From NCBI GenBank assembly GCA_964016885.1, contig OZ024743.1:31186001-31250000 (forward strand): a stretch of DNA of 64,000 nt, written 5' to 3'. Shown here piece after piece: positions 1 to 47,353 of the stretch (position 1 is its first letter; each line of letters opens with the position of its first letter). The notes beneath the pieces are model-generated. The model was not told the DNA's origin. It saw only the letters and a program-made list of their open reading frames with translations, and made no database searches. The position numbers and the translations under genes were made by a program. Source of the stretch: Eledone cirrhosa (lineage: Eukaryota).

Positions 1-183
1 TATATATATATGTGTGCATGCATGCATATATATACATACTACTGTGCGTCTGTACACATATATGTATGTACGTATACATACTTATATTTAGGTGTCAGCC
101 GTACTAAGAGTGACAAATGAAATTTCGTTTCATTCTTTTCCATTTATCGTTTTCGGCACGCCCCGCCGACTAACTCACTCGAT

Positions 184-191
184 ATGCAAAT
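184..191 (+). promoter_or_regulatory. Octamer motif ATGCAAAT in the retrozyme-like unit
   Basis: Exact octamer at the same relative position as in the 466-bp unit; function is inferred. Confidence 0.45.
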
Positions 192-263
192 TAGGCTGCT
201 CAGCCGTTAATATGCATAATGTAAGTATATACTTTCAAACGTTCAATCATCTGACAGAATATA

Positions 264-304
264 CGATGCTGACGATGGCTAATAGGCTTGAAACTAGTAC
301 ATCG
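264..304 (+). ncRNA. Type I hammerhead ribozyme (weak stem II)
   Basis: CGATG-CTGACGA-TGGC TAATAG GCTT-GAAA-CTAG-TA^CATCG. Stem I is CGATG/CATCG, with distal pairing CTGACA(251-256)/TGTCAG(311-316). Predicted GUA cleavage after 299. Confidence 0.75.
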
Positions 305-510
305 CTCCTGTGTCAGTGTTGAACAAAAGGTCGACGATGGTTGCCGAGCATTGTACGTTGTAAATAGGGTTGTTTGTTTACAAACAAAGCGAACATTATA
401 ATAATTGTTCAGTAAATCCATACGTACATATATATATATATATATATGTGTGCATGTATGTATATATATACATACTACTGTGCGTCTGTACACATATTTA
501 TGTACGTATA

Positions 511-20124: not shown

Positions 20125-23100
20125 AAAGGAAGACGGCGAGACCATCTGCACAATGGACTCAATCGACAACCGGATCAGTTCCACACGTGACAGCAACTGT
20201 TCGACATAGCTCCACAAGTCAGCAATGCTCCATCACTGAGCGAGTACGTGCAGAACGGTTTCGTCGCAATGCGCGCATCTCGGACAGGCTCGGCTGACGG
20301 CACTTCCGTGCCTGTAGAGCTTATCTTGAACCGGCAGCGCTCCCCGGTAGCACTGCCAGGCCGGGAATTTTCGGAAGTTATCCATAGGCCCCGGGCTGAA
20401 AATTCTCCGGAAGAGAGCAAGCAGCTGATCTTCTTCGACGCCCAGGATCTCTCCGAGAACGTCGTCGCTCTTCCCCTCCACTAGTCCTCTATAGAACGCC
20501 GAGATGGATGTTCCACCGATACTGGTGCCCAACTGGGAGAGGGCAGTGAGCGCCTGGAGACATTCCCAGCGCTATCCCTCCGTCTTTTTCTGATCCAGGA
20601 CTGCAGCTCCGTCAAGGAGACGAGCTGTGGGAAAATGTGCCTGGAGAACGGCGACCACACCCGTTCACCATCAAAGAAGCACCAGAGATGTCGCAGCCTC
20701 AGCGCATGTTTGGGCATCATCAGCCATGGCATGCCCAGTCCTCCACGCAACGGGTGTTGACAGCAGATGGATCGTCTGACCTTGGGAGCGCGTCCCTTCC
20801 ACAAAAAGCGGAAGAGGAGGCGCTTCATTTTGGTGAGAGTTGGGCTGAAGCAAAGGACGACGGTGAGGCGGTAGCAGATGACGGATGCGATGTACGCATT
20901 CGCCACTTCCGCCCGGCCTTTCAGGGACAGCTTCCTCTCAGCCTATTTCTGGGTGATGGAGGCCACCCTGCTCGTCACTTCGTTCCAGTTTTTCTCCATC
21001 TGGGAGTCCGGTCCGAACCAGACCCCGAGCAATTCAACCGGTCGGTCGGTCCAACGCCCCACGACGCTGTCGGACGGCATGGACTTGCCTCTCCAGGTGC
21101 TTAGCTGCAAGCCCACCGACTTTTCCTGGTTTATCTTTGCTCCTGTCACCGTTTTGTATTCCTTGAGAGCGGTGGCGAGCATCTGGACGTGTCTGGTGCT
21201 CGACACCACCACGGTGACGTCGTCAGCGTAAGCCGACTCGCATTCCCCCATCCTAGTTTGCGTGGGACGCCCCTCATCGCCCCCAGTTTCTGCAGTAACG
21301 GCTCGAGAGCCAATACGTACAAGAGGGACGAGAGGGGACAACCCTGGCGGACTGAGCGCATGATGCTGAACGGCTACGACAGGTGACCGTTCACCATCAC
21401 AACTGAGCAGATGTCACTGTACATTGCTGCGATCCAACGCCTGAAAACAGGCCCGAAACCGGATGCCTCGAGGACCGCCGCCAGGTACCGATGGTCGACC
21501 CTATCGAATGCTTTGGATTGATCCAAGTTGATCAGGGTCCCACCCATGCCAGGTTCCTTAACCACCCTCTCTATGATGTATCGCATGAGGTGGAGGTTTT
21601 CGTGTATGGATCTGTCCGGGATGGCGCATGTCTGCGCCTCTCCCACCAGACCCTTGACGACAAGCGCCAACCTCGATGCTAACACCTTGGTCAAAATCTT
21701 GAACTCTGCGTTTAGCAGGTTTATGGGCCTGAAATTATCAATAACATCCCCCTTGTTTGGGTCTTTTCTCAGCAGCGCTACTATAAATGCATGAAGCTCG
21801 TAGGGCAGACCATCCAAACCTGGCGATTTACCTCTTGTGCAGTTAGCCATCGCTTCCCGTATTTCACCGGCTGTTATTGGCTTTTCGCAACACTGTGCTG
21901 CGGTCGTCGAGAGCCGAGGCAGTCCGTCGAGATATGCACTGAAGTCCATATCCCGATCCGGGCTGCCGCCGCTGCCGAAAAGTTCAGCAACGTGCTGCTG
22001 AAAAGCTTCACACATCCGCTCTGGTTCGAGCATCACGCACCCGTTTTGTTCAGACAAAGACCGAATTGTGGCTTTATTGCCACGTCGCGCCTCTGCCACC
22101 CGGGCCCATTGGACGCTTTTGTCCTCTCGTATTTCAGAGCACGCGCTCTAGCTCTGACAACACAGCCTTCGTGTTTTGCGTTGAAGAATTGGTCGAGTGC
22201 CAATCTCGCCGCAAGCACGTCAGTTGCGATGCCTGTCCTAAACGCCTCTTCTAGCTTTCTGACTAACTCTCCCTCTACTCTATTTCCCTCTATCACTACT
22301 CCTTTGCTAAACCTAATCGACTCTACTTTAATTGCCCTTTTCAGGGCGAACCACCACCTGTTGTTGACGACCGCTCCCGTCAACGCCCGCTTAACTAATA
22401 CGCTAATCCGGTCTCTGTAGGCCTTGCGCGACGGGAAAGACGCGTTCAGCTTCCAGTAACCAGGCCCTTGTCTATGAAGTCTGTCTATGTCGATCTCACA
22501 GATCACAAATTTGTGGTCTATGTAGTCGACTATTTTAAAATGTGGACAACTTATACTAACCTTATCTAGTTCCCTGCAGAATACCCTATCTAGATACGAT
22601 CTGGATGACCCGATGCAGTTTGTCCATGTCCACATTGGCACATTCGGGTGATCCAGTCGATACCTGTCAGACCGTTCAACACGTCTGAGCAGGTTGGTGA
22701 GGCTCTTGCACCCTCCTCCCCTATCCACTAGCCCCACACGATCCCAGCGTGCATCCAAGATACCGTTCCAGTCGCCCACTAACACTAAAGAGCGGGACGT
22801 TCCATGAAAGGTCTCTAGACGTCTGAAGAAATCTGGCCGTCCTGCCCCTGTTGGGGCGTAGACGGCTACTAGCCTGAAAGCATTGCCTTCGCTGCCGATC
22901 ACGTCCAGCACCACCGACTTACTTTCTGGGTCCAGGAAGATGGCCCGTATCGCGAGATCCAAGCCTCTCCGAAAAAGGACGGCAACCCCTCCCTCCGATC
23001 CTGGACGGCTGGGAGATGCGTATACATCGTAGCCGCCGAAGATCGGTGCGAAGGCCCGTGTCTCGGAGATTCTGGTTTCACTGATGGCCACCACATCTAT

Positions 23101-23193
23101 GTTTAGTGACCTGAGATCATTGAGCAGGTGACCCTGCTTCCAAGATGACCCCAGGTCACGTGCATTTATACTGCCTATTCTGAGTACAGCCAT
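20125..23193 (-). pseudogene. LINE A ORF2 (APE endonuclease-RT), frameshifted
   Basis: ORF pieces 22033-23229, 21374-22099, 21146-21361, 20943-21341, 20481-20906, 20233-20532. Confidence 0.88.
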
Positions 23194-23225
23194 GTTGGAT
23201 GAGAAACGGGGCAACTGAGAAAGGA

Positions 23226-25207
23226 TCACTTACATCGTTCGTGTGGTGAAGGGACAGTAGAGCCGTCCTTTTCGCTGGTCATGGGTGTTTCCAAGAGGAT
23301 GTCAGTGTATATCCTCTTGGTAACAGTTCCTCTGAACTCTCCAACTGCGTTGGTGAATTTTGGTTTTAAAGTTTTGTACTGTTCTAATGAGATTTCGATG
23401 ATGCTTATGTTTGTCGGGAGAGTTCTTGGTGTCGGTGGGGTGTAGTAATGTTTTTCCGTGATGTCTGTGTGCTGCTTTATATATTTTATGAGTTCTTTTT
23501 TTGCTATGTTTATGGCTGTGTACTTTTTGGGGGGCGTGGTGATTTTGTTGCGGTTTTCTTCTTGTTGCTGTTTGGTGTGTGTGTCTTGTTGTGTTTGCGT
23601 TGTTGGTGTTTGTGGTTGTGTTGCTGCAAGTTTCCTTGCTGCCTTTACCCCTCTTTGTATGCCTTCGCTTTTGGAGGGTGAATCTAAGGGTTTTTTTGTT
23701 TTTGTTTTTTGTTTTTTGTTGCAGACTGTTTGCTTCGTCACTCCCGCCTCAAACTCCATGTCGGATTCTGTGGCGTCTGGGAGGGGTATGTGCTCCACGA
23801 CTGTGGGTGGTGGTAGTGGAACCCTCTTTGTTGTTGGTGTAGCCATTGGTGTTGCCGCTACTGATGATGCTGCTGTATTTATCCGTGGCCTTGGTACGGG
23901 TGCTACGGACGTTGCCCTCCTACTCACCGTGGAAGGGGCTTCTTCGTTTGTTGCCTGTCCTGCTCTTGGTAGCAGCGGACCAGGTACTGGAAGGAGAGGG
24001 TCCCCCTTCGGTGTCTTCTGCGGGAAAAAGGCCCTGAGGTGACCTTTCGACCCACAGAGATAACATTTTGGCCGTCTTCCTTCTACACTTATAGGGAGTT
24101 GGAGTCCTTCCTCAAAGTCTATGATATAGGGGATAACCTCGATACATTCCTGGTCAGTTTGTATAAGCATGTGCATGCCTATACCTGACCAGCCAAGGTA
24201 GGGCACGTCGGGTGGGACCTGGGTCACTTTGACCCTCACAATTTTCTGCCCATAGTAGGAGGGCACCAAGACTAACTCCTCACTATTTACGGTTTCCAAA
24301 GAGTGAGACTTTGCTTCCTGGGGGGTGGCGAAAAGTATGTCTACTGTGGCGTACTTTCTGCCTCGGGTGATGTGGGATTTGCGTGCCCAGAGGCACCCCG
24401 AGGCCTTTTGGATTTGAGCCTCCGTGGCTCTCTCCACTCGATGTGAGATTTTTCTTACGGTGCGGTAAGTCACCGTTCGTAGCTGCTGGTCCTTGAAAAA
24501 ATCGGGTGGAGGTTTCAGGGAAACTCTATTTGCGCTTCTTGTCACCATGGCCCTTGCGACTGCCATCTCCTCCTCTGTGACTAACACTGTCTCGATATTT
24601 AGGGCAACACATGCAAAAGAAGTGGTCTCTTTTTCAGCAGCTCCACTATTGCTGCCGCTACTGGTCTTACTGGTGGTGTTGAGGTCCCTATTACAGGTAT
24701 CGGTGTCATTGTTGTTATTTTCGCTGGTACAGTTGTTGGTGTTGTTTTCGTTGATACTGTTGCTGATGTTACTGTTATTGTGGCTGTTGTTATTATTGTT
24801 GTTTTTATTGATAGTTTCCTACTATTATTGTTGTTGTGGCTGTTGTTATTGTCATTGTTATTGTCGTTCTCGACCTTACCGCTGTTATTTTTGTTATTGT
24901 CGTTCTCGACCTTACCGCTGTTATTTTTGTTATTGTCGTTCTCGACCTTACCGCTGTTAATTTTGTTATTGTCGTTCTCGACTTCACCGCTGTTATTTTT
25001 GGTGTTGTTGTTGGTGATGTTGTTGGTCTTATTGTTGGTGTTGTTTGTGTTAGAAATATTTGTTAAATCTGTAACAATCTTTTTTCCCTTTGTAATATTT
25101 TCGTTTATATTTACCTCCGCTGGAACGCTGTCTTGTTGACATGCTGATAAAGTTTCCCTCTCTCTGTGTTGTCTGACAGCGCTCTCTCTCATTTTTGTGT
25201 TATCCAT
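23226..25207 (-). pseudogene. LINE A ORF1 (gag-like; Asn/Thr-rich N-terminus, CCHC-like knuckle), frameshift near 24590
   Basis: ORFs 24599-25207 and 23226-24587; CYLCGSKGHLRAFF; homologous to ORF1 of copy B. Confidence 0.8.
24858..25000. repeat. 36-bp coding minisatellite x4 inside LINE A ORF1 (NNSGKVENDNNK)
   Basis: TTGTCGTTCTCGAC recurs at 24861, 24897, 24933 and 24969. Confidence 0.9.
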
Positions 25208-25422
25208 GTTGAAATTTTTCCAAAAATATTTTTACATAAATACGAATACGACACCCCGTAAAGGGGTGCCGTATTATTTACTAGTGAACCCTTGTATTAG
25301 GTGGGTCACTTCTTCTAAACTTTTATCAAATTTAAAACTTGAATAAAAGGTTTAGAACGGTTGAAAAAGGGGTAAAACGTTGAAAAATACTGGAGGCGAT
25401 AAGATGCGTGGCTTCACCAACC

Positions 25423-25457
<35 letters not shown>

Positions 25458-25473
25458 CAATGATAATAATAAT
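25423..25473. repeat. (AAT)n tract between LINE A 5' end and LINE B 3' end
   Basis: Direct reading. Confidence 0.95.
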
Positions 25474-25724
25474 GATTTCTTTATTAACCACACGGGTTTA
25501 CATAAAGTAGACATTAAGGACAGTGAAAGACAATACAGGATGGTACAAATGGGCATTTCTGCGTGTAAAGAACAAAGACAGAGGTAGTAACAAAAAAATA
25601 ACAATGAAAAATTCCCCAATAGGGGGGAGACTTCGGAGGGAGATTTGTGGAGAAAGCCCAGTAAAAGGCCACAGTGACCCTGACCACCAAGGCAAGTGCC
25701 CTCTCCCAGCTTTCCACCTTTAAT

Positions 25725-28700
25725 TTACAGATACGTACTCAGAGTAGGCCTATTCACTCGGGCCATTCTTGCTTCTCTCACCCATCTTTCAACAAAATGC
25801 TGGGAAGAGAGCACTTCCCTCTCTACCCTGATTTCCCTTTTCAAATGAAATTTGAAAAAGTTGATCAGGGCATCACCGAAGAGGTAAGTGCTCGTCTTCA
25901 GCCCTTTCAAACGTGTCCACCATACTATCTCTTTCGCCATGGCCACCAGACAGATAGAAACTGCCTGCCCTTCCCGGCTAAAGGAAGAGGGCGAGGCAAT
26001 CCTCACGATGGACTCAGATGATAGCCGGATCCGTCCTACACGCGACAGCAGGTGTTCGACATAAACCCAAAAGTCAGCAATTTTCGGACACTGGACGAGT
26101 GCGTGCAAGACGGTTTCGTCGCCCTGCGCGCATCTCGGACATGCCCGGCTGACGGCACCTCCATGCCTGTAGAGTTTATCCCGAACTGGCAAGGCTCCTC
26201 GGTAGCACTGCCAGGCCAGAGATTTCTGGAAGTTGTCCATAGGCCCCGGCCCGAAAGTTCTTCCGAAGAGATTCGCTAGTTGTTTTTCGTCGACGCCTAG
26301 AGTTGCCCCAAGTACGTCGTCGCTCTTCCCCTCCACTAATCCTCTATAGAACACCGAGGTGGAGTTTCCACCGATCACATTCCCGATTGGTCGAGGGCTG
26401 TGAGCGCCTGAAGACATTCCAGTCTCAAAGCGCTCCCTCTCGGTCTTCGCTTGACCCAGGACTGCAGCTCCGTCAAGGAAACGAGCTGGGAAAATTCGTG
26501 TCAAGCAAACGGCGACCACACCTGATCACCGTAGAGGAAGAGGTGGAGATGTCGTAGCCTGAGCGCGTGTCTGCGCATCATCAGCCACGGCATTCCCAGC
26601 CCTCCATGTAGCGGGTGTTGACAGCAGATGGACCGCCTGACCATCAAAGCGCGTCCCTTCCACAAAAAGCGAAAGAGAAAACGCTCCAGCGCTGTCAGGC
26701 GGGGCTTAGGACAAGGTACGACGGTCAGGCGGTAGCAGATGACTGACGCGATGTACGCGTTAGCCACCTCCGCTCGACTTTTCAGGGATAGCTTCCACTC
26801 CGCCCATTTCACCTCGTCCCAATTTTTGTCCGTCTGGAGGTCCGGACCGAACCAGACCCCTATCAATTTAACCGTCCGTCCGTCCAGCGTCCGACGACGC
26901 TGTTGGACGGTGCTGAGCTGCATGCCCACTGACTTTTCCTGGTTGATCATTGCTCCTGTCACCGCTTCGTATTCTCTTAGTGTAGTGCCGATCGCCTCGA
27001 TGTGTTTGGCGTTCGACACCACTACGGTGACATCGTCCGCATATGCTGACACGGATCATCCGCATCCTAGTTCGCTCGGGACGACCCTCAACGTCTCCAG
27101 TTTGTGTAGTAATGGCTCGAGAGTAAATACGTACAAGAGGGACGAGATGGGACATCCTTGGCGGACCGAGCGCATGATGTTGAACGGTTCCGAAAGGTGA
27201 CCGTTCACTCTCACCACAGAGCAGATGTCGCTGTGCATGGCAGCGATCCAGCCTCTGAAGACGGGCCCAAAGCCAGCCGCCCTCATGACTGCCGCTAGGT
27301 AAAGATGGTCGACCCTATCGAAAGCTTTCGACTGATCTAAATTGATCAAGGACCCACCCGTGCCAGGTTCGCTAGCTACCCTCTCTACGATGTATCGCAT
27401 GAGTTGGAGGTTGTCGTGGATGGATCTGTCGGGAATGGCGCATGTCTGCGCCTCTCCCACCAGACCACCAACGACAAGCGCCAACCTCTTTGCTAGCACC
27501 TTGGCCAAAATCTTGAACTCTGTGTTTAGCAGAGTTATGGGCGGAAATTATCTATGTTATCCCCCTTGTTCGGATCCTTTCTCAGCAGTGCCACCGCTCC
27601 TCGGCTCACAGAACTGGGAATTCTCCCGTTCTGTTGCCAGTTGCAGTAGACGTCCGTCAAGAGGCCTCCGAACAAGTCTGGCATCTGTACATTAAAGTTC
27701 ATAGGGCAAACCATCCAAACCAGGCGATTTACCCCTTGTGCAGCCAGTCATTGCCTCCCTTACGTCAGCGGCTGTTATCGGCTTTTCGCAACACTCCGCC
27801 TCAGTGGCCGAAAGCCGCGGCAGTCCGTCGAGGTAGACACTAAAGTCAATCCCTCGACCCGGCCCACCCCTGCCCCCAAACAGCTGAGGGAAGTGTCGCT
27901 GAAAAGCTTCACACATTTGCCCGGGATCGAGTAGCATGCGCCCGTCATGGTCTACCAAAGACCGGATCGTGGATTTGTACCCACGACGCGCCTCCGCCAC
28001 TCGGGCCCATTGAACGGCTTTCGTCCCCTCGTGGCTGAGAGCACGCACCCTAGCTCTGACAATGCAGCCTTCGTGCTTTGCATTGAAGAATTTGTCAAGG
28101 GCCAAGTTCGCCGCAAGCACGTCGGTCGCAATGCCTTTGCTAAGCGCCTCGACTAATTTTCTAACTAGTTCTCCCTCTGCTCTATTTTTCTCTATTGCTA
28201 AAGCCTTACTAAACCTAATCGATTCTATTCTAATCGCTCTTTTCAGAGCAAACCACCACTTGTTGTTGACGATGGCCCCCGTCAACGCCCGCTTAACTAG
28301 TTCGCTAATCCGGTCTCTGTAGGTCTTGCGCGCTGGTAAGGACGCGTTTAGCTTACAGTAGCCGGGTCCTCGTCTATGAAGCCTATCTAAGTCAAGCACA
28401 CAGATCACGAATTTGTGGTCCGTGTAGCTGACTATCTTGAATTATGGACAGCCTATGCTAGACCTATCTATTTCCCTACAAAATACTCTATCTAGATATG
28501 ATCTGGATGACCCTATGCGATTTGTCCAAGTCCACATTGGCACATTCGGGAAATCCAATCGGTACCTGTCAGACAGTTCAAAACGCCTGAGCAGGTTGAT
28601 GAGGCTCTTTCACCCTCCACCCCTATCCGCTAATCCCACAGAGTCCCAGCGTGCATCTAAGATCCCGTTCCAGTCGCCCACTAACACTAAAGAGCGGGAC

Positions 28701-39163: not shown

Positions 39164-41198
39164 CGTATGTGTGTGTGTCTGTGTGTGCCTGCGTGTGTAT
39201 ACGTAATCACTAATACCATAACAGATTTAAATTATATGCTTATGCTTCCGCGTTGTATAATCGAACAAGGGCCTATTTCAATGAAGTTAAAATCATTGCC
39301 CCCTCAGACCCAAGGAATCAAGTTCATACTCGTAATTGTATTGCATGCAGACTGATCAATATTAATTCGCAACAACATAAAACCAAGCATCATCATCGTT
39401 ATATTCATCATCACTATCATCGCCATCATCATCATTAACATCATCATCGTCATCATTGTATCATCATCAACATCACCATCATCTCACTCATATTTCCCCC
39501 ACACATAATTCCTTAAAATAGTACTAAACATCATCGTCTTTAGTAACACCACCCTCTTCTTACACATCATCACTACCTCTGAATGTACCATCCTTTTTCT
39601 TTCCTTTCCATGGCTTCGCTATTACCATAACAATAACTGAAATAATATCGATAACAACTGCAGTAACTTCTGTAACATATATAGGCCTGATAGTGATTCC
39701 ATTTAATAACCAGTTTCGACTGTTTCATTGGAATGTTTAATAAATATCGAATCAGTTTCAGTGTACGCAGCGACATTACCAGATGTGGTTTGTAAAGTGT
39801 GATGCAATATACAGTTCAATCTATAGATACGTACAGGAATGTTTTAGTTTTCAGCTCTTTCTCTAATTTTAATTAAACTCTTATTTTATTAAGATAATTT
39901 TCTTAGGATACATTTCGGAAGAAAAAGTGCTGTTTCGTTTCTGAATTAATCAAGAATAATAATATGGGTGAGATTCAGTGCAAAATGTTGATGACACATA
40001 TGACAACTTAAATGTACAAATAGCAATGTTCTATTTCGTTATAAGAAAAAAAAAATGAAAATGTTAATTTAAAATTAATTGCTTCTGCAATTACGAAAAT
40101 ATCATTATGCCCCTAAATTGTAATGGAAAAAGTTTAATGCAGAAACTTTGAATTTTATGCAAAGAATACATGATATATGTATTCTAGTATATGACCCATT
40201 TTTTCACAAAAAGTTAACGTGATATTTTTTATTGAATAATAACTATTATATCCAGAAGAATTAATTTATAGAATAGTGACATAATTTGGAACAGAAAATA
40301 TTCGTGAAATAAAACGAAATGCGTAGTCCCTATATTTTAATAGAGAGAAAATAGATGTACGTTTCAACAATCTGTAATTCAAGCAATCTCTATACTGATT
40401 ACATGTTTGTAGATATTCTAATTCATATCATTGTGGTGCCTGTGACGTTCTATTGATTTAATAATTCGACTTTGAATTGCAAATATCTTTAGCTTAAAAC
40501 TATTTCCAACTCTATTGTCAATAAGACACAGTTTACCATGATGTAGAGTGATAAATATAAAGTTTCGATAAGCGCTGCAATTGCCATGACGAATATACTT
40601 CATAACAAGGAATCTACAACTTAACGTAAAAAGCAGGTATGTATCTGAAGCTTGCAAACTACGCCCTGCATTAACGCCAACATCTTTCTTTCATTTCTCA
40701 GTGTTATTTACAAATATCACTGTATAATGTCTACGGTTTCAACAACTACTAGTTTTCACAGTGTTCATACTAATTCGCAAATTCATTTTATACTTTGAAC
40801 AATATTTTAATGTGTATGAAATTTTGCGACATTCAGCCGCAATTTGCAGTTGAATATATATCTAGGAAAATATGTATATAAATAGACACGTTAAACTCCT
40901 AAACATATAAAATGCTCGTATTTACTTGGAAATTGGAAAGCAAATTAGGAATTCTCTTAAACTATATATACATAAACAATTAAGTTAAAAATGTACATCC
41001 ACATATGTATACTGAAATACTAGTATGCATATGAATACACACACGTGTACATATGTAGATGTACCGAGTTTTTCACTGGACACTTTACTGTGAGTGTCCA
41101 GCTATTCTGTATGTAAACACACAGACAAACCGGTTTTTAGAGTCATACTGGTTTTCGAGGAAACACCTTTCCTCTATTCTCCAGAAAGCCAGACAAGG

Positions 41199-41243
41199 AA
41201 TATTGGACTAGTTTCGATGTTGTTACATCTCATCAGCAATATT
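41199..41243 (-). ncRNA. Type I hammerhead ribozyme
   Basis: Reverse complement of AATATTG-CTGATGA-GATG TAACAA CATC-GAAA-CTAG-TC^CAATATT. Confidence 0.9.
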
Positions 41244-41664
41244 TACCTATCTTCCGCCCTTTCTAGAGAATCGTAAAAGCACATATCGTTATATGCTTTT
41301 TCTATGAAAATTAGTAGTGGGCAGACTAATTTGCATAGAGCGTGAGTACGTACCGGTTCAGCGGAGACGATAAAAACAAATAACGAAACGAAATTAAATT
41401 TCGTTTCGTTTGTAACTCACTTTTGTATGACTGACGCTTAAACAATTAAGTTAAAAATGTACATCCACATATGTATACTGAAATACTAGTATGCATATGA
41501 ATACACACACGTGTACATATGTAGATGTACCGAGTTTTTCACTGGACACTTTACTGTGAGTGTCCAGCTATTCTGTATGTAAACACACAGACAAACCGGT
41601 TTTTAGAGTCATACTGGTTTTCGAGGAAACACCTTTCCTCTATTCTCCAGAAAGCCAGACAAGG

Positions 41665-41709
41665 AATATTGGACTAGTTTCGATGTTGTTACATCTCATC
41701 AGCAATATT
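41665..41709 (-). ncRNA. Type I hammerhead ribozyme
   Basis: Identical copy, 466 bp downstream. Confidence 0.9.
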
Positions 41710-42130
41710 TACCTATCTTCCGCCCTTTCTAGAGAATCGTAAAAGCACATATCGTTATATGCTTTTTCTATGAAAATTAGTAGTGGGCAGACTAATTTGC
41801 ATAGAGCGTGAGTACGTACCGGTTCAGCGGAGACGATAAAAACAAATAACGAAACGAAATTAAATTTCGTTTCGTTTGTAACTCACTTTTGTATGACTGA
41901 CGCTTAAACAATTAAGTTAAAAATGTACATCCACATATGTATACTGAAATACTAGTATGCATATGAATACACACACGTGTACATATGTAGATGTACCGAG
42001 TTTTTCACTGGACACTTTACTGTGAGTGTCCAGCTATTCTGTATGTAAACACACAGACAAACCGGTTTTTAGAGTCATACTGGTTTTCGAGGAAACACCT
42101 TTCCTCTATTCTCCAGAAAGCCAGACAAGG

Positions 42131-42175
42131 AATATTGGACTAGTTTCGATGTTGTTACATCTCATCAGCAATATT
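42131..42175 (-). ncRNA. Type I hammerhead ribozyme
   Basis: Identical copy. Confidence 0.9.
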
Positions 42176-42596
42176 TACCTATCTTCCGCCCTTTCTAGAG
42201 AATCGTAAAAGCACATATCGTTATATGCTTTTTCTATGAAAATTAGTAGTGGGCAGACTAATTTGCATAGAGCGTGAGTACGTACCGGTTCAGCGGAGAC
42301 GATAAAAACAAATAACGAAACGAAATTAAATTTCGTTTCGTTTGTAACTCACTTTTGTATGACTGACGCTTAAACAATTAAGTTAAAAATGTACATCCAC
42401 ATATGTATACTGAAATACTAGTATGCATATGAATACACACACGTGTACATATGTAGATGTACCGAGTTTTTCACTGGACACTTTACTGTGAGTGTCCAGC
42501 TATTCTGTATGTAAACACACAGACAAACCGGTTTTTAGAGTCATACTGGTTTTCGAGGAAACACCTTTCCTCTATTCTCCAGAAAGCCAGACAAGG

Positions 42597-42641
42597 AATA
42601 TTGGACTAGTTTCGATGTTGTTACATCTCATCAGCAATATT
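42597..42641 (-). ncRNA. Type I hammerhead ribozyme
   Basis: Identical copy. Confidence 0.9.
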
Positions 42642-43135
42642 TACCTATCTTCCGCCCTTTCTAGAGAATCGTAAAAGCACATATCGTTATATGCTTTTTC
42701 TATGAAAATTAGTAGTGGGCAGACTAATTTGCATAGAGCGTGAGTACGTACCGGTTCAGCGGAGACGATAAAAACAAATAACGAAACGAAATTAAATTTC
42801 GTTTCGTTTGTAACTCACTTTTGTATGACTGACGCTTAAACAATTAAGTTAAAAATGTACATCCACATATGTATACTGAAATACTAGTATGCATATGAAT
42901 ACACACACGTGTACATATGTAGGTGTCCAGTGAAAAACTCGGTACATCTACATATGTACACGTGTGTGTATTCATATGCATACTAGTATTTCAGTATACA
43001 TATGTGGATGTACATTTTTAACTTAATTGTTTAAGCGTCAGTCATACAAAAGTGAGTTACAAACGAAACGAAATTTAATTTCGTTTCGTTATTTGTTTTT
43101 ATCGTCTCCGCTGAACCGGTACGTACTCACGCTCT

Positions 43136-43143
43136 ATGCAAAT
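43136..43143 (+). promoter_or_regulatory. Octamer ATGCAAAT in each full 466-bp unit (also 43602, 44068, 44547 on +; 41329, 41795, 42261, 42727 on -)
   Basis: Exact octamer ~90 bp upstream of the hammerhead, conserved in the diverged unit at 184; function inferred. Confidence 0.5.
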
Positions 43144-43228
43144 TAGTCTGCCCACTACTAATTTTCATAGAAAAAGCATATAACGATATGTGCTTTTACG
43201 ATTCTCTAGAAAGGGCGGAAGATAGGTA

Positions 43229-43273
43229 AATATTGCTGATGAGATGTAACAACATCGAAACTAGTCCAATATT
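43229..43273 (+). ncRNA. Type I hammerhead ribozyme
   Basis: Stem I AATATTG/CAATATT; CTGATGA 43236-43242; stem II GATG/CATC with loop TAACAA; GAAA 43257-43260; minimal stem III with palindromic ACTAGT; GUC cleavage after 43266. Confidence 0.92.
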
Positions 43274-43694
43274 CCTTGTCTGGCTTTCTGGAGAATAGAG
43301 GAAAGGTGTTTCCTCGAAAACCAGTATGACTCTAAAAACCGGTTTGTCTGTGTGTTTACATACAGAATAGCTGGACACTCACAGTAAAGTGTCCAGTGAA
43401 AAACTCGGTACATCTACATATGTACACGTGTGTGTATTCATATGCATACTAGTATTTCAGTATACATATGTGGATGTACATTTTTAACTTAATTGTTTAA
43501 GCGTCAGTCATACAAAAGTGAGTTACAAACGAAACGAAATTTAATTTCGTTTCGTTATTTGTTTTTATCGTCTCCGCTGAACCGGTACGTACTCACGCTC
43601 TATGCAAATTAGTCTGCCCACTACTAATTTTCATAGAAAAAGCATATAACGATATGTGCTTTTACGATTCTCTAGAAAGGGCGGAAGATAGGTA

Positions 43695-43739
43695 AATATT
43701 GCTGATGAGATGTAACAACATCGAAACTAGTCCAATATT
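43695..43739 (+). ncRNA. Type I hammerhead ribozyme
   Basis: Identical copy. Confidence 0.9.
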
Positions 43740-44160
43740 CCTTGTCTGGCTTTCTGGAGAATAGAGGAAAGGTGTTTCCTCGAAAACCAGTATGACTCTA
43801 AAAACCGGTTTGTCTGTGTGTTTACATACAGAATAGCTGGACACTCACAGTAAAGTGTCCAGTGAAAAACTCGGTACATCTACATATGTACACGTGTGTG
43901 TATTCATATGCATACTAGTATTTCAGTATACATATGTGGATGTACATTTTTAACTTAATTGTTTAAGCGTCAGTCATACAAAAGTGAGTTACAAACGAAA
44001 CGAAATTTAATTTCGTTTCGTTATTTGTTTTTATCGTCTCCGCTGAACCGGTACGTACTCACGCTCTATGCAAATTAGTCTGCCCACTACTAATTTTCAT
44101 AGAAAAAGCATATAACGATATGTGCTTTTACGATTCTCTAGAAAGGGCGGAAGATAGGTA

Positions 44161-44205
44161 AATATTGCTGATGAGATGTAACAACATCGAAACTAGTCCA
44201 ATATT
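44161..44205 (+). ncRNA. Type I hammerhead ribozyme
   Basis: Identical copy. Confidence 0.9.
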
Positions 44206-44639
44206 CCTTGTCTGGCTTTCTGGAGAATAGAGGAAAGGTGTTTCCTCGAAAACCAGTATGACTCTAAAAACCGGTTTGTCTGTGTGTTTACATACAGAAT
44301 AGCTGGACACTCACAGTAAAGTGTCCAGTGAAAAACTCGGTACATCTACATATGTACACGTGTGTGTATTCATATGCATACTAGTATTTCAGTATACATA
44401 TGTGGATGTACATTTTTAACTTAATTTTTTAACTTAATTGTTTAAGCGTCAGTCATACAAAAGTGAGTTACAAACGAAACGAAATTTAATTTCGTTTCGT
44501 TATTTGTTTTTATCGTCTCCGCTGAACCGGTACGTACTCACGCTCTATGCAAATTAGTCTGCCCACTACTAATTTTCATAGAAAAAGCATATAACGATAT
44601 GTGCTTTTACGATTCTCTAGAAAGGGCGGAAGATAGGTA

Positions 44640-44684
44640 AATATTGCTGATGAGATGTAACAACATCGAAACTAGTCCAATATT
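44640..44684 (+). ncRNA. Type I hammerhead ribozyme
   Basis: Identical copy; spacing is 479 bp because of the 13-bp duplication. Confidence 0.9.
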
Positions 44685-45045
44685 CCTTGTCTGGCTTTCT
44701 GGAGAATAGAGGAAAGGTGTTTCCTCGAAAACCAGTATGACTCTAAAAACCGGTTTGTCTGTGTGTTTACATACAGAATAGCTGGACACTCACAGTAAAG
44801 TGTCCAGTGAAAAACTCGGTACATCTACATATGTACACGTGTGTGTATTCATATGCATACTAGTATTTCAGTATACATATGTGGATGTACATTTTTAACT
44901 TAATTGTTTAAGCGTCAGTCATACAAAAGTGAGTTACAAACGAAACGAAATTTAATTTCGTTTCGTTATTTGTTTTTATATATACATATATATATATATA
45001 TATACATATACACACCCACACACACACACACACACCCACACACAC

Positions 45046-46319: not shown

Positions 46320-46972
46320 CGTATGTGTGTGAGTGTGTGTGTGTGTATATAAATGTATGTATGTGGAGATAAACAGAGAAAGAGAGGGGAGAAAAGGGAT
46401 AAGGTGGATAATTTAAAACTGTCAGAAACTATGATTTCAGTTTCGAAACCATTGCTCGATATCTTGGTCATATATATTCAGAAAGGTGTTTCATTGACGC
46501 ATGTGTTTCTTAGTGAAGACCGGTAATTGATTTATGTATGATTTTCGTTAAGAAAAAATATTATTTTCTTTGAGAGCGAGGTTACCATATGTTCATTGTA
46601 TATATACATATTGTATATACACACCGATTATCCTTCAACGCTATCTTAATACAACTTCCAGTTAATTATAATCACTCAAGTTCATATTATATGCAAATGA
46701 GAATTTCCAGCCAATATTGACTATTTGCTATATGCAAACGATCATCTCGCAAAACCTATACGAATTTTAGTCTATTCCCATGTTAGTACCAACAAAGTGA
46801 ATTTTAATGAAAAATTCTTGCAAATCTCGAAACAAGGCTGTCTGATATTCCCAAGCGGTGCGGACGTTTCATAGACAAGCAGCATTTCTCCTTTGATAGA
46901 GAAGGTACCATACGTTTGTTGTATATGAATATATAGTATATGATTTTATACATACATACATACACACACAAG

Positions 46973-47082
<110 letters not shown>

Positions 47083-47186
47083 TATAAATATTTAGGTTCT
47101 CGACATATGTCGGGTGAGTATACACAAATAAATGTACTCAATACATTGATTATAGGCATCTTCATTATATCTAGAAATGACTCATT

Positions 47187-47266
47187 CAGGACTAGAACTG
47201 TTTCATTCGTGAAACATCGTCAGGGCTTCTTGACGATTTCTCACGAATGAAACAGTTCTAGTGCTG
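47187..47266. repeat. Small inverted pair of degenerate hammerhead-like cores
   Basis: ACTAGAACTGTTTCATTCGTGA..ATCGTCA pairs with TGACGAT..TCACGAATGAAACAGTTCTAGT. Minus strand CTGACGA..GAAAC..GTC; stem I is lost at the centre. Confidence 0.55.
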
Positions 47267-47275
47267 TAGAAGCGC

Positions 47276-47353
<78 letters not shown>

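What the first reader, a model, noticed from the sequence alone, without database searches (positions are those of the whole stretch)
43040..43200. Conserved octamer and 14-bp palindrome upstream of the ribozyme: possible internal snRNA-type promoter
Seen: TATGCAAATTAG is retained in both the 466-bp unit (octamer at 43136) and the diverged unit (184) while neighbouring sequence differs. A palindrome AACGAAACGAAATT-T-AATTTCGTTTCGTT (43062-43090), TTTATCGT and TGTTTACA are also partly shared. Established: newt satellite 2, also a hammerhead satellite, is transcribed from an snRNA-like promoter with an octamer and a PSE. Inference: each unit may carry its own promoter, driving divergent transcription from the palindrome centre. 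I could not identify a PSE by eye.
Basis: partly seen in the sequence, partly recalled or inferred. Interest (0 to 1): 0.7.

Follow-up and report, generated by a model that had tools for sequence, protein, structure and literature searches.

The report
Ribozyme repeat borrows host small-RNA promoter
Each 466-base unit of this abundant repeat, which holds a predicted self-cutting RNA, carries the same 12-base signal that sits in front of the host's own U6-type small-RNA genes, so the repeat likely switches itself on; the nearby palindrome is likely a hairpin marking where copying into DNA starts, not a promoter centre.

Summary
TATGCAAATTAG (43135) and the 29-bp palindrome (43062-43090) occur in every unit of an inverted 466-bp hammerhead array, a non-LTR retrozyme. 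The 12-mer precedes a hammerhead core 26,838 times in the genome (control 0).

The 12-mer is the host's own proximal promoter element: it lies at -76 to -79 in 7 of 9 Pol III small-RNA loci and in 0 of 17 U1/U2/U5/U12 loci. Its distance to the TATA box in the units (41-43) matches host U3/U13 (42), not U6-type genes (46-48). Units also contain T5-T7 runs that templates must cross, so Pol II is favoured. Two other families carry the host U1/U2-type promoter instead, again with the short spacing.

The palindrome is not the inversion centre. It lies between two fixed insertion ends (36 of 40), the Penelope 'tail'. One RNA run covers the whole unit, but in another haplotype; no start site could be mapped. 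Caveat: the octamer is also one arm of a conserved RNA hairpin.

This scan reported the promoter resemblance and the two fixed ends before, on other DNA of this genome. Precedent: newt satellite 2.

The parts
40973..42926 (-). Left arm of the inverted array, 4.2 units of 466 bp; its 3' end is at fixed site 1
42923..44979 (+). Right arm, 4.4 units; its 3' end is at fixed site 2, followed by (TA)n
43027..43033 (+). Fixed insertion end, site 1 (15 of 40 family ends map here); inferred reverse-transcription start
43034..43102 (+). Penelope-type 'tail' between the two fixed ends, about 70 nt
   Evidence: PMC11167929
43062..43090 (+). Perfect palindrome; predicted 13-bp RNA hairpin with a 3-nt loop, inside the tail
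43099..43103 (+). Fixed insertion end, site 2 (21 of 40 ends), inside TTTAT|CGT and just after a T5 run
43135..43146 (+). TATGCAAATTAG, the host proximal promoter element; also the 5' arm of a predicted hairpin (43133-43171)
43151..43156 (+). CCCACT at the position of the PSE-like core; weak match in this family (22% of positions score as well)
43176..43184 (+). Degenerate TATA-like box GCATATAAC, 41 nt after the octamer start
43208..43211 (+). Predicted transcription start by U3/U13 geometry (43212-43215 by U6 geometry); not observed
   Evidence: inference
43218..43289 (+). Type I hammerhead motif, core CTGATGA at 43236, predicted cut after 43266
   Evidence: HH9 38.9 bits, E 1.9e-8, below the gathering score of 52
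43347..43366 (+). Predicted hairpin holding TGTTTACA, downstream of the ribozyme
43481..43485 (+). First T5 run downstream of the predicted start (possible leaky Pol III stop)
85..330 (+). Diverged family-B unit: tail hairpin 116-134, octamer 183-194, TATA 225-233, hammerhead core at 269
46690..46840 (+). Decayed unit of a further family: TATGCAAATGAG, TATA-like box 38 nt on, decayed hammerhead core near 46808 (read by eye)
   Evidence: similar to L160

Best explanation
The 12-mer is identical to the host's proximal small-RNA promoter element, and with the TATA-like box 41-43 nt downstream it likely forms an internal promoter, probably read by RNA polymerase II, that would start just 5' of the hammerhead; the palindrome is a separate part, likely an RNA hairpin between the two start points of a Penelope-type reverse transcriptase. 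Inferred cycle: transcription starts near 43208-43211 in one unit and reads through the next; successive hammerheads cut after 43266 and 43732 and release a 466-nt monomer that contains the tail and the next unit's promoter; the monomer is circularised; a Penelope-type enzyme copies it from two fixed sites into both ends of a cut (TA)n target, giving head-to-head arrays. Shown: motif identity with host promoters, spacing, two fixed ends with scattered inversion points, RNA contigs over the whole unit in one run. Inferred: promoter activity, polymerase, start site, self-cleavage, circle, identity of the helper element.
For: Host genes found by Rfam search without using the motif carry ATG(C/G)WAATKAG at -76 to -79: U6 (3 distinct loci), U6atac, MRP, two tRNA-Sec, i.e. 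7 of 9 Pol III loci; 0 of 17 U1/U2/U5/U12 loci. Among 19 U6 upstream rows, the 4 with the element at -77 to -79 are exactly the 4 with the distal element. A matrix from the 7 host promoters scores the unit 25.2 bits, 0 of 300 shuffles. Genome-wide 26,838 octamer-plus-core matches, control 0. Octamer-to-TATA distance: 46-48 in the 7 Pol III loci, 42 in U3 and U13, 41/42/43 in families A/B/C. Same shift in the host's second promoter class: ATCAGT core to TATA is 33-34 in RNase P and 7SK, 25-28 in 12 of 16 U1/U2/U5/U12 rows, and 26 and 25 in two octamer-less retrozyme families that match the U1/U2/U5 three-part motif (2 and 1 of 2000 shuffles). Family B units with T6-T7 in the sense strand continue into the promoter in 14 of 50 independent insertions (my count), while host Pol III RNAs have internal T runs of 3 or less and end in T5-T10. 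In the octamer hairpin the 5' arm keeps the host sequence, including a C that is unpaired in A, B2 and C, while the 3' arm varies. Ends: 36 of 40 at two sites; 42 inversion or 5' points scattered over 43043-43490; 10 of 23 stretches show one end of each kind on opposite arms and none shows two of the same kind; family B has the same two ends around its hairpin. Run X5 is RNA (contig spliced over an RPS9 intron) and covers all 30 bins of the unit.
Against: No start site, strand or polymerase data. The octamer is also the 5' arm of a hairpin in families A, B and C, with a compensatory T/G change, so RNA structure could explain part of its conservation. In family A the TATA box and the PSE-like core are weak and the host distal element is absent at the usual distance (34 matches genome-wide, none from A among the 14 distinct loci inspected). 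The exact 12-mer is otherwise typical of Pol III genes; the short-spacing class rests on U3 (2-3 mismatches) and one U13 locus that was found with a motif-biased pattern and could itself be Pol III (T4 downstream). Within family A the octamer is no more conserved than the adjacent block (1.7% vs 0.8-0.9% departure, 30 copies, partly motif-selected). 764 genomic units carry TTGG in place of TTAG and have spread, and this variant dominates the RNA run. Several hammerhead groups sampled without the motif lack it. The RNA haplotype is not the window's. No autonomous partner was found.
Confidence: 0.55

Rival explanations
1. The cassette is a functional but U6-type Pol III promoter; templates arise by leaky read-through of T4-T5 runs.
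For: The exact 12-mer marks 7 of 9 host Pol III loci and no U1/U2/U5/U12 locus. Family A also keeps the CC that follows it in U6 and tRNA-Sec promoters. Families A and B1 have no run above T5 and T4. A rare group (L159, L161, L245) has hammerhead then T5-T8 directly after, two of the three with the octamer. Schistosome hammerhead repeats are reported as Pol III (PMC6765202 passages).
Against: Spacing is 4-6 nt shorter than in all 7 Pol III loci. T6-T7 runs sit inside propagated B units and a T6 in family C.
Confidence: 0.2
2. The motif is an inherited relic kept for RNA folding or protein binding on the RNA; transcripts come from read-through by neighbouring host promoters.
For: Whole unit is strongly structured (z -9.4). 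The octamer pairs in A, B and C with a compensatory change. The RNA run shows mostly one haplotype, which could be a single array inside a host transcript. Short hammerhead groups without any promoter motif are also common.
Against: Pairing does not explain why the invariant arm equals the host promoter motif, why an unpaired C is kept, why a TATA box follows at 41-43 in three families, or why two other families carry the host's other promoter class.
Confidence: 0.2
3. The 29-bp palindrome is a double-stranded DNA site that drives divergent transcription.
For: It is perfect in family A and lies 45 nt upstream of the octamer.
Against: In B it is imperfect and pairs through G-U and a C-G to U-A change; common A variants are G-U compatible. 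It is bracketed by the two insertion ends. No promoter motif lies on its other side in the opposite direction. No such palindrome is evident by eye in the host promoter stretches printed.
Confidence: 0.04

Closest known systems
Newt satellite 2 (Coats, Zhang and Epstein 1994; paper not held; seen only as cited in PMC2220036 and PMC6765202)
   Same: Tandem hammerhead repeat with an internal snRNA-type promoter, reported as Pol II-transcribed.
   Different: Here the octamer-like motif is the host's proximal element at about -75 with a TATA-like box, and it is otherwise used mainly by Pol III genes; several families and two promoter classes occur in one genome.
Metazoan non-LTR retrozymes (Cervera and de la Pena 2020, PMC7229834; Li, Clavereau and Pollet 2026, 10.64898/2026.07.22.740005)
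   Same: Non-coding tandem units of a few hundred bases, a type I hammerhead in each, low GC, proposed Penelope mobilisation.
   Different: Neither text names an endogenous promoter: 'promoter' occurs only for T7 in the first and 0 times in the second. Unit is 466 bp, just above the 150-450 range given.
Penelope-like elements: pLTR, 'tail' and inverted insertions (Frangieh 2024, PMC11167929; Craig 2021, PMC8557442; Schostak 2008, PMC2377424)
   Same: Two reverse-transcription start sites bracket the tail and lie at a stem-loop; inverted 5'-truncated copies; (TA)n targets.
   Different: Tail is about 70 nt rather than 30-40; no ORF; the Drosophila Penelope promoter is described as TATA-less and LINE-like (abstract), not snRNA-type.
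Schistosome Sm-alpha hammerhead repeats
   Same: Promoter plus hammerhead in each unit; the upstream unit transcribes the next (PMC6765202 passages).
   Different: Reported as Pol III and SINE-like; the promoter here is an upstream snRNA-type cassette.

Membership tests
Non-LTR retrozyme | Type I hammerhead in every tandem unit | tested here: met
   Core at 466-nt steps in 8 full units; HH9 match E 1.9e-8, 38.9 bits, below gathering 52
Non-LTR retrozyme | Short non-coding unit, dispersed high-copy arrays | tested here: met
   No ORF of 150 aa in 40973-44979; 814 candidates, 40 scored at about 100% identity on several contigs
Non-LTR retrozyme | Expressed as linear and circular monomers | tested here: inconclusive
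   RNA run X5 covers the unit and bridges the unit junction (shorter side only 18 nt); contigs cannot tell tandem from circle
Non-LTR retrozyme | Self-cleavage | not testable with these tools
   needs in vitro assay
Newt satellite 2-type internal snRNA promoter | Host snRNA promoter element inside the unit, upstream of the ribozyme | tested here: met
Newt satellite 2-type internal snRNA promoter | PSE | tested here: inconclusive
   Core at 27-28 nt before TATA scores in the top 2-4% of positions in B and C, top 16-22% in A
Newt satellite 2-type internal snRNA promoter | Pol II transcription that depends on the elements | not testable with these tools
   only indirect: spacing and T runs
Host type-3 Pol III promoter (U6 class) | ATG(C/G)WAATKAG proximal element | tested here: met
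Host type-3 Pol III promoter (U6 class) | Element-to-TATA distance 46-48 | tested here: not met
   41-43 in A, B, C
Host type-3 Pol III promoter (U6 class) | Distal TTACCTCCCTT-type element about 260-290 nt upstream | tested here: not met
   Exact pattern gives 34 genome matches against about 27,000 octamer units; none of the 14 inspected is family A. Host U6atac, MRP and tRNA-Sec also miss this pattern, so it is not strictly defining.
Penelope-mobilised element | Two fixed 3' ends (tail), variable inversion point, microsatellite target | tested here: met
Penelope-mobilised element | Autonomous partner sharing the terminal region | tested here: inconclusive
   Two adjacent Penelope-type ORFs were nested insertions: 0 of 24 and 0 of 19 other copies carry the cassette directly upstream

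The most novel reading that the evidence does not exclude
Animal retrozymes are self-promoted as a class. In this genome they have captured both of the host's small-RNA promoter types and in both cases carry the short, Pol II-type spacing, so each unit launches a read-through transcript whose ribozyme-cut monomer carries the promoter back into DNA. The promoter is hidden in an RNA hairpin, and the recurrent TAG to TGG change in that hairpin records A-to-I editing of the RNA intermediate.
Probability: 0.35. Interest if true: 0.72.

Novelty: new variant of a known kind. Interest (0 to 1): 0.5.

Why it matters
Retrozyme RNAs are reported as abundant, but the two class-level papers I searched name no endogenous promoter, and the newt case has stood as a single example. 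Here the candidate element, its spacing and a predicted start are given to within a few bases, which makes the question directly testable. The work also splits the finding into two functions (promoter cassette, Penelope tail hairpin) and yields a promoter map for the host's small-RNA genes, including a spacing rule that separates Pol II from Pol III loci, useful for building U6-type expression tools in this animal. The score is held at mid level because the class and the newt precedent are known and no start site was observed.

Tried and rejected
Rfam at gathering threshold over the window: 0 matches.

Family B as the terminal repeat of the Penelope-type ORF just left of the window: rejected, 0 of 24 other copies have it directly upstream; one has a B insertion further off. 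Family C-like cassette as the promoter of the ORF in L162: rejected, 0 of 19. Pfam gave no family for the two ORF pieces left of the window; their assignment rests on motifs read by eye and recalled.

A full-length Pol II matrix did not score any of A, B, D or I significantly; only the narrower three-part motif, written after seeing D, did, so that test is post hoc. Cross-family conservation of the octamer (0.90 vs 0.30) is partly circular, since most representatives were picked by the motif. Resemblance of A to the U3 promoter at CATAGAAA was set aside: it is the hairpin partner of CTATG.

U8 search: no match. Pattern for other short-spacing host genes returned almost only retrozyme copies in the first 100 of 232. 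Run search: no RNA holder listed. Runs X4 and X6 hold single low-depth contigs and lack the host RPS9 exons; not interpretable. My first hammerhead detector missed family B; a stricter window scan found nothing outside the array. Literature searches without a relevant hit.

Full report
Observation. All motifs are at the stated places. They belong to two head-to-head arrays of a 466-bp unit, 40973-42926 on the minus strand and 42923-44979 on the plus strand, with identical copies, set in (TA)n. Each full unit has a type I hammerhead. The 12-mer TATGCAAATKAG occurs 10 times in the window against 0.03 expected, which amounts to three independent occurrences. In the 3.0-Gb host genome it precedes a hammerhead core 26,838 times, reversed control 0. 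At least three abundant families carry it, at -101 (A, 34 of 38 distinct contexts), -89/-86 (B, 42 of 46) and -100 (C, 4 of 4) from the core. The host is an unnamed animal; flanking repeats look cephalopod-like to me (recalled, untested).

The octamer is a host promoter element. I fetched host small-RNA genes by Rfam family and read their upstream DNA. ATG(C/G)WAATKAG lies at -76 to -79 in three distinct U6 loci, U6atac, MRP and two tRNA-Sec loci. It is absent from RNase P and 7SK and from 0 of 17 U1/U2/U5/U12 loci, which use AATTA near -90 and A(T/C)CAGT near -57. Of 19 U6 upstream rows, only the 4 that also have the distal element carry it at that position; the rest are retrocopies or an interrupted array copy. 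A matrix from the 7 Pol III promoters scores the window unit 25.2 bits, 0 of 300 shuffles. So the motif is the proximal element of one host promoter class, not a distal enhancer.

Which polymerase. Octamer-to-TATA distance is 46-48 in all 7 Pol III loci, 42 in U3 (variant element) and U13, and 41, 42 and 43 in families A, B and C. U3 has internal T4-T6 runs and mostly no T-run end, which fits Pol II; U3 is Pol II in yeast and humans, Pol III in plants (PMC7277114, passages). The second host class shows the same shift: 33-34 in RNase P and 7SK, 25-28 in 12 of 16 Pol II rows (in the other 4 the TATA call slipped inside an AT run). Two hammerhead families found without using the octamer match that class with distances 26 and 25. 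Any template must include the promoter, so it must cross the unit's T runs; 14 of 50 independent B insertions have T6-T7 in units that continue into the promoter (my count). These points favour Pol II. Against: the exact 12-mer is mainly a Pol III mark here, U13 was found with a biased pattern and may be Pol III, and in family A both the TATA box and the PSE-like core are weak. Element spacing is known to be conserved in insect snRNA promoters (PMC1761439, passages); that a few bases of spacing go with polymerase class is my recall.

A structural caveat. The circular monomer folds far better than shuffles (z -9.4, 30 shuffles). The octamer is the 5' arm of a hairpin in A, B and C, with TAG/CTA and GAG/CTC both paired.

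The palindrome. Of 40 distinct 3' ends of family A, 15 map to 43027-43033 and 21 to 43099-43103; 42 inversion or 5' points scatter over the unit. Loci were best BLAST hits and pattern hits, not a random sample. Of 23 stretches, 10 show one end of each kind on opposite arms, one more array shows this across two stretches, one shows both on the same strand, and none shows two of a kind on opposite arms; two extra hits of the loose pattern lay outside the element and were dropped. The window follows the rule. Family B ends at the equivalent two places around its hairpin (28 of 70 and 28 of 83 contexts stop there, with a few misclassified). Frangieh et al. (PMC11167929, parts 1-2 of 4 read) show that the Penelope tail is the sequence between two reverse-transcription starts at a stem-loop, and Craig et al. 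(PMC8557442, passages) describe inverted insertions, tails and (TA)n targets. The palindrome is therefore best read as the tail hairpin; A and B differ by a C-G to U-A change and tolerate G-U pairs. TTTATCGT is the site-2 end. TGTTTACA sits in a hairpin after the ribozyme.

Expression. No listed run was on record as RNA, but X5 holds a contig spliced across an RPS9 intron at depth 3292 with intron depth near 0-2, so it is RNA. It covers all 30 bins of the unit, promoter and tail included. It shows mostly one haplotype (79-100% at eight sites where DNA run X1 has 4-45%), which matches genomic array L331/L332 at 13 of 13 sites and argues against plain DNA carry-over. It is not the window's haplotype, X5 is another sample, contigs drop rare variants and give no strand or start, and one array inside a host transcript would look the same.

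Comparison with known systems. An internal snRNA-type Pol II promoter is reported for newt satellite 2 (not held; cited in PMC2220036 and PMC6765202, passages). Penelope's promoter is TATA-less (PMC2377424, abstract). PMC5460494 (passages) places the schistosome U6 octamer at about -250, unlike here. Searches found no paper describing host snRNA promoter cassettes across retrozyme families; most subscription papers are not searched. Earlier notes of this scan reported the U6-like motif and the two fixed ends in the same genome; these are not independent support, and one prompted my end mapping. In the short notes shown I did not see the spacing argument for Pol II, the RNA run or the placing of this palindrome in the tail.

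Verdict. Real feature, new variant of a known kind. Internal promoter likely (about 0.75 in all; Pol II 0.55, Pol III 0.2), relic or structure only 0.2, palindrome as promoter centre under 0.05. Interest 0.5.

Noticed in passing
host loci L061-L106, L152, L153, L260, L282-L298, L302: The host has two small-RNA promoter classes. Both Pol II and Pol III genes have a TATA-like box near -30, and the element-to-TATA distance is 5-8 nt longer in Pol III genes. RNase P and 7SK share the U1/U2 core rather than the U6 element.
   Followed up: yes
window 43145; L324-L335: TAG to TGG in the octamer hairpin is present in 764 genomic units on six haplotype backgrounds among nine insertions; it fits recurrent A-to-I editing of the RNA intermediate (UAG in a stem; preference recalled) or template switching between subfamilies.
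   Followed up: partly
L232, L233 (310-bp family): No octamer, but the U1/U2/U5 three-part motif, and ATTACTTCCCTTG (the host distal element) right after the hammerhead, about 250 nt before the next unit's predicted start. It overlaps the ribozyme's stem I loop, so it may be coincidence.
   Followed up: partly
L159, L161, L245, L160: Dispersed, divergent hammerheads, three of the four with the octamer upstream, with a T5-T9 run soon after; possibly short Pol III hammerhead genes or an ancestral form.
   Followed up: no
L091 / L186: A family-A insertion lies about 1.2 kb upstream of a U1 gene at the edge of a U1 tandem array.
   Followed up: no
L107 1765-3294, minus strand (just left of the window): Broken Penelope-type ORF (RT then GIY-YIG-like domain, by motifs read by eye) with family-B units inserted next to it; 2656 candidates in the genome.
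   Followed up: partly
window 47160-47280: Short, inverted pair of minimal hammerhead-like motifs of another group (like L240-L244), ending in (TA)n.
   Followed up: no
window 21374-27055, minus strand: Non-LTR retrotransposon pieces: endonuclease (PF03372), RT (PF00078) and zf-RVT.
   Followed up: no
window 44413-44445: One unit of the right arm has a 13-bp duplication (TTTTTAACTTAAT) at site 1, possibly a slip at the reverse-transcription start point.
   Followed up: no
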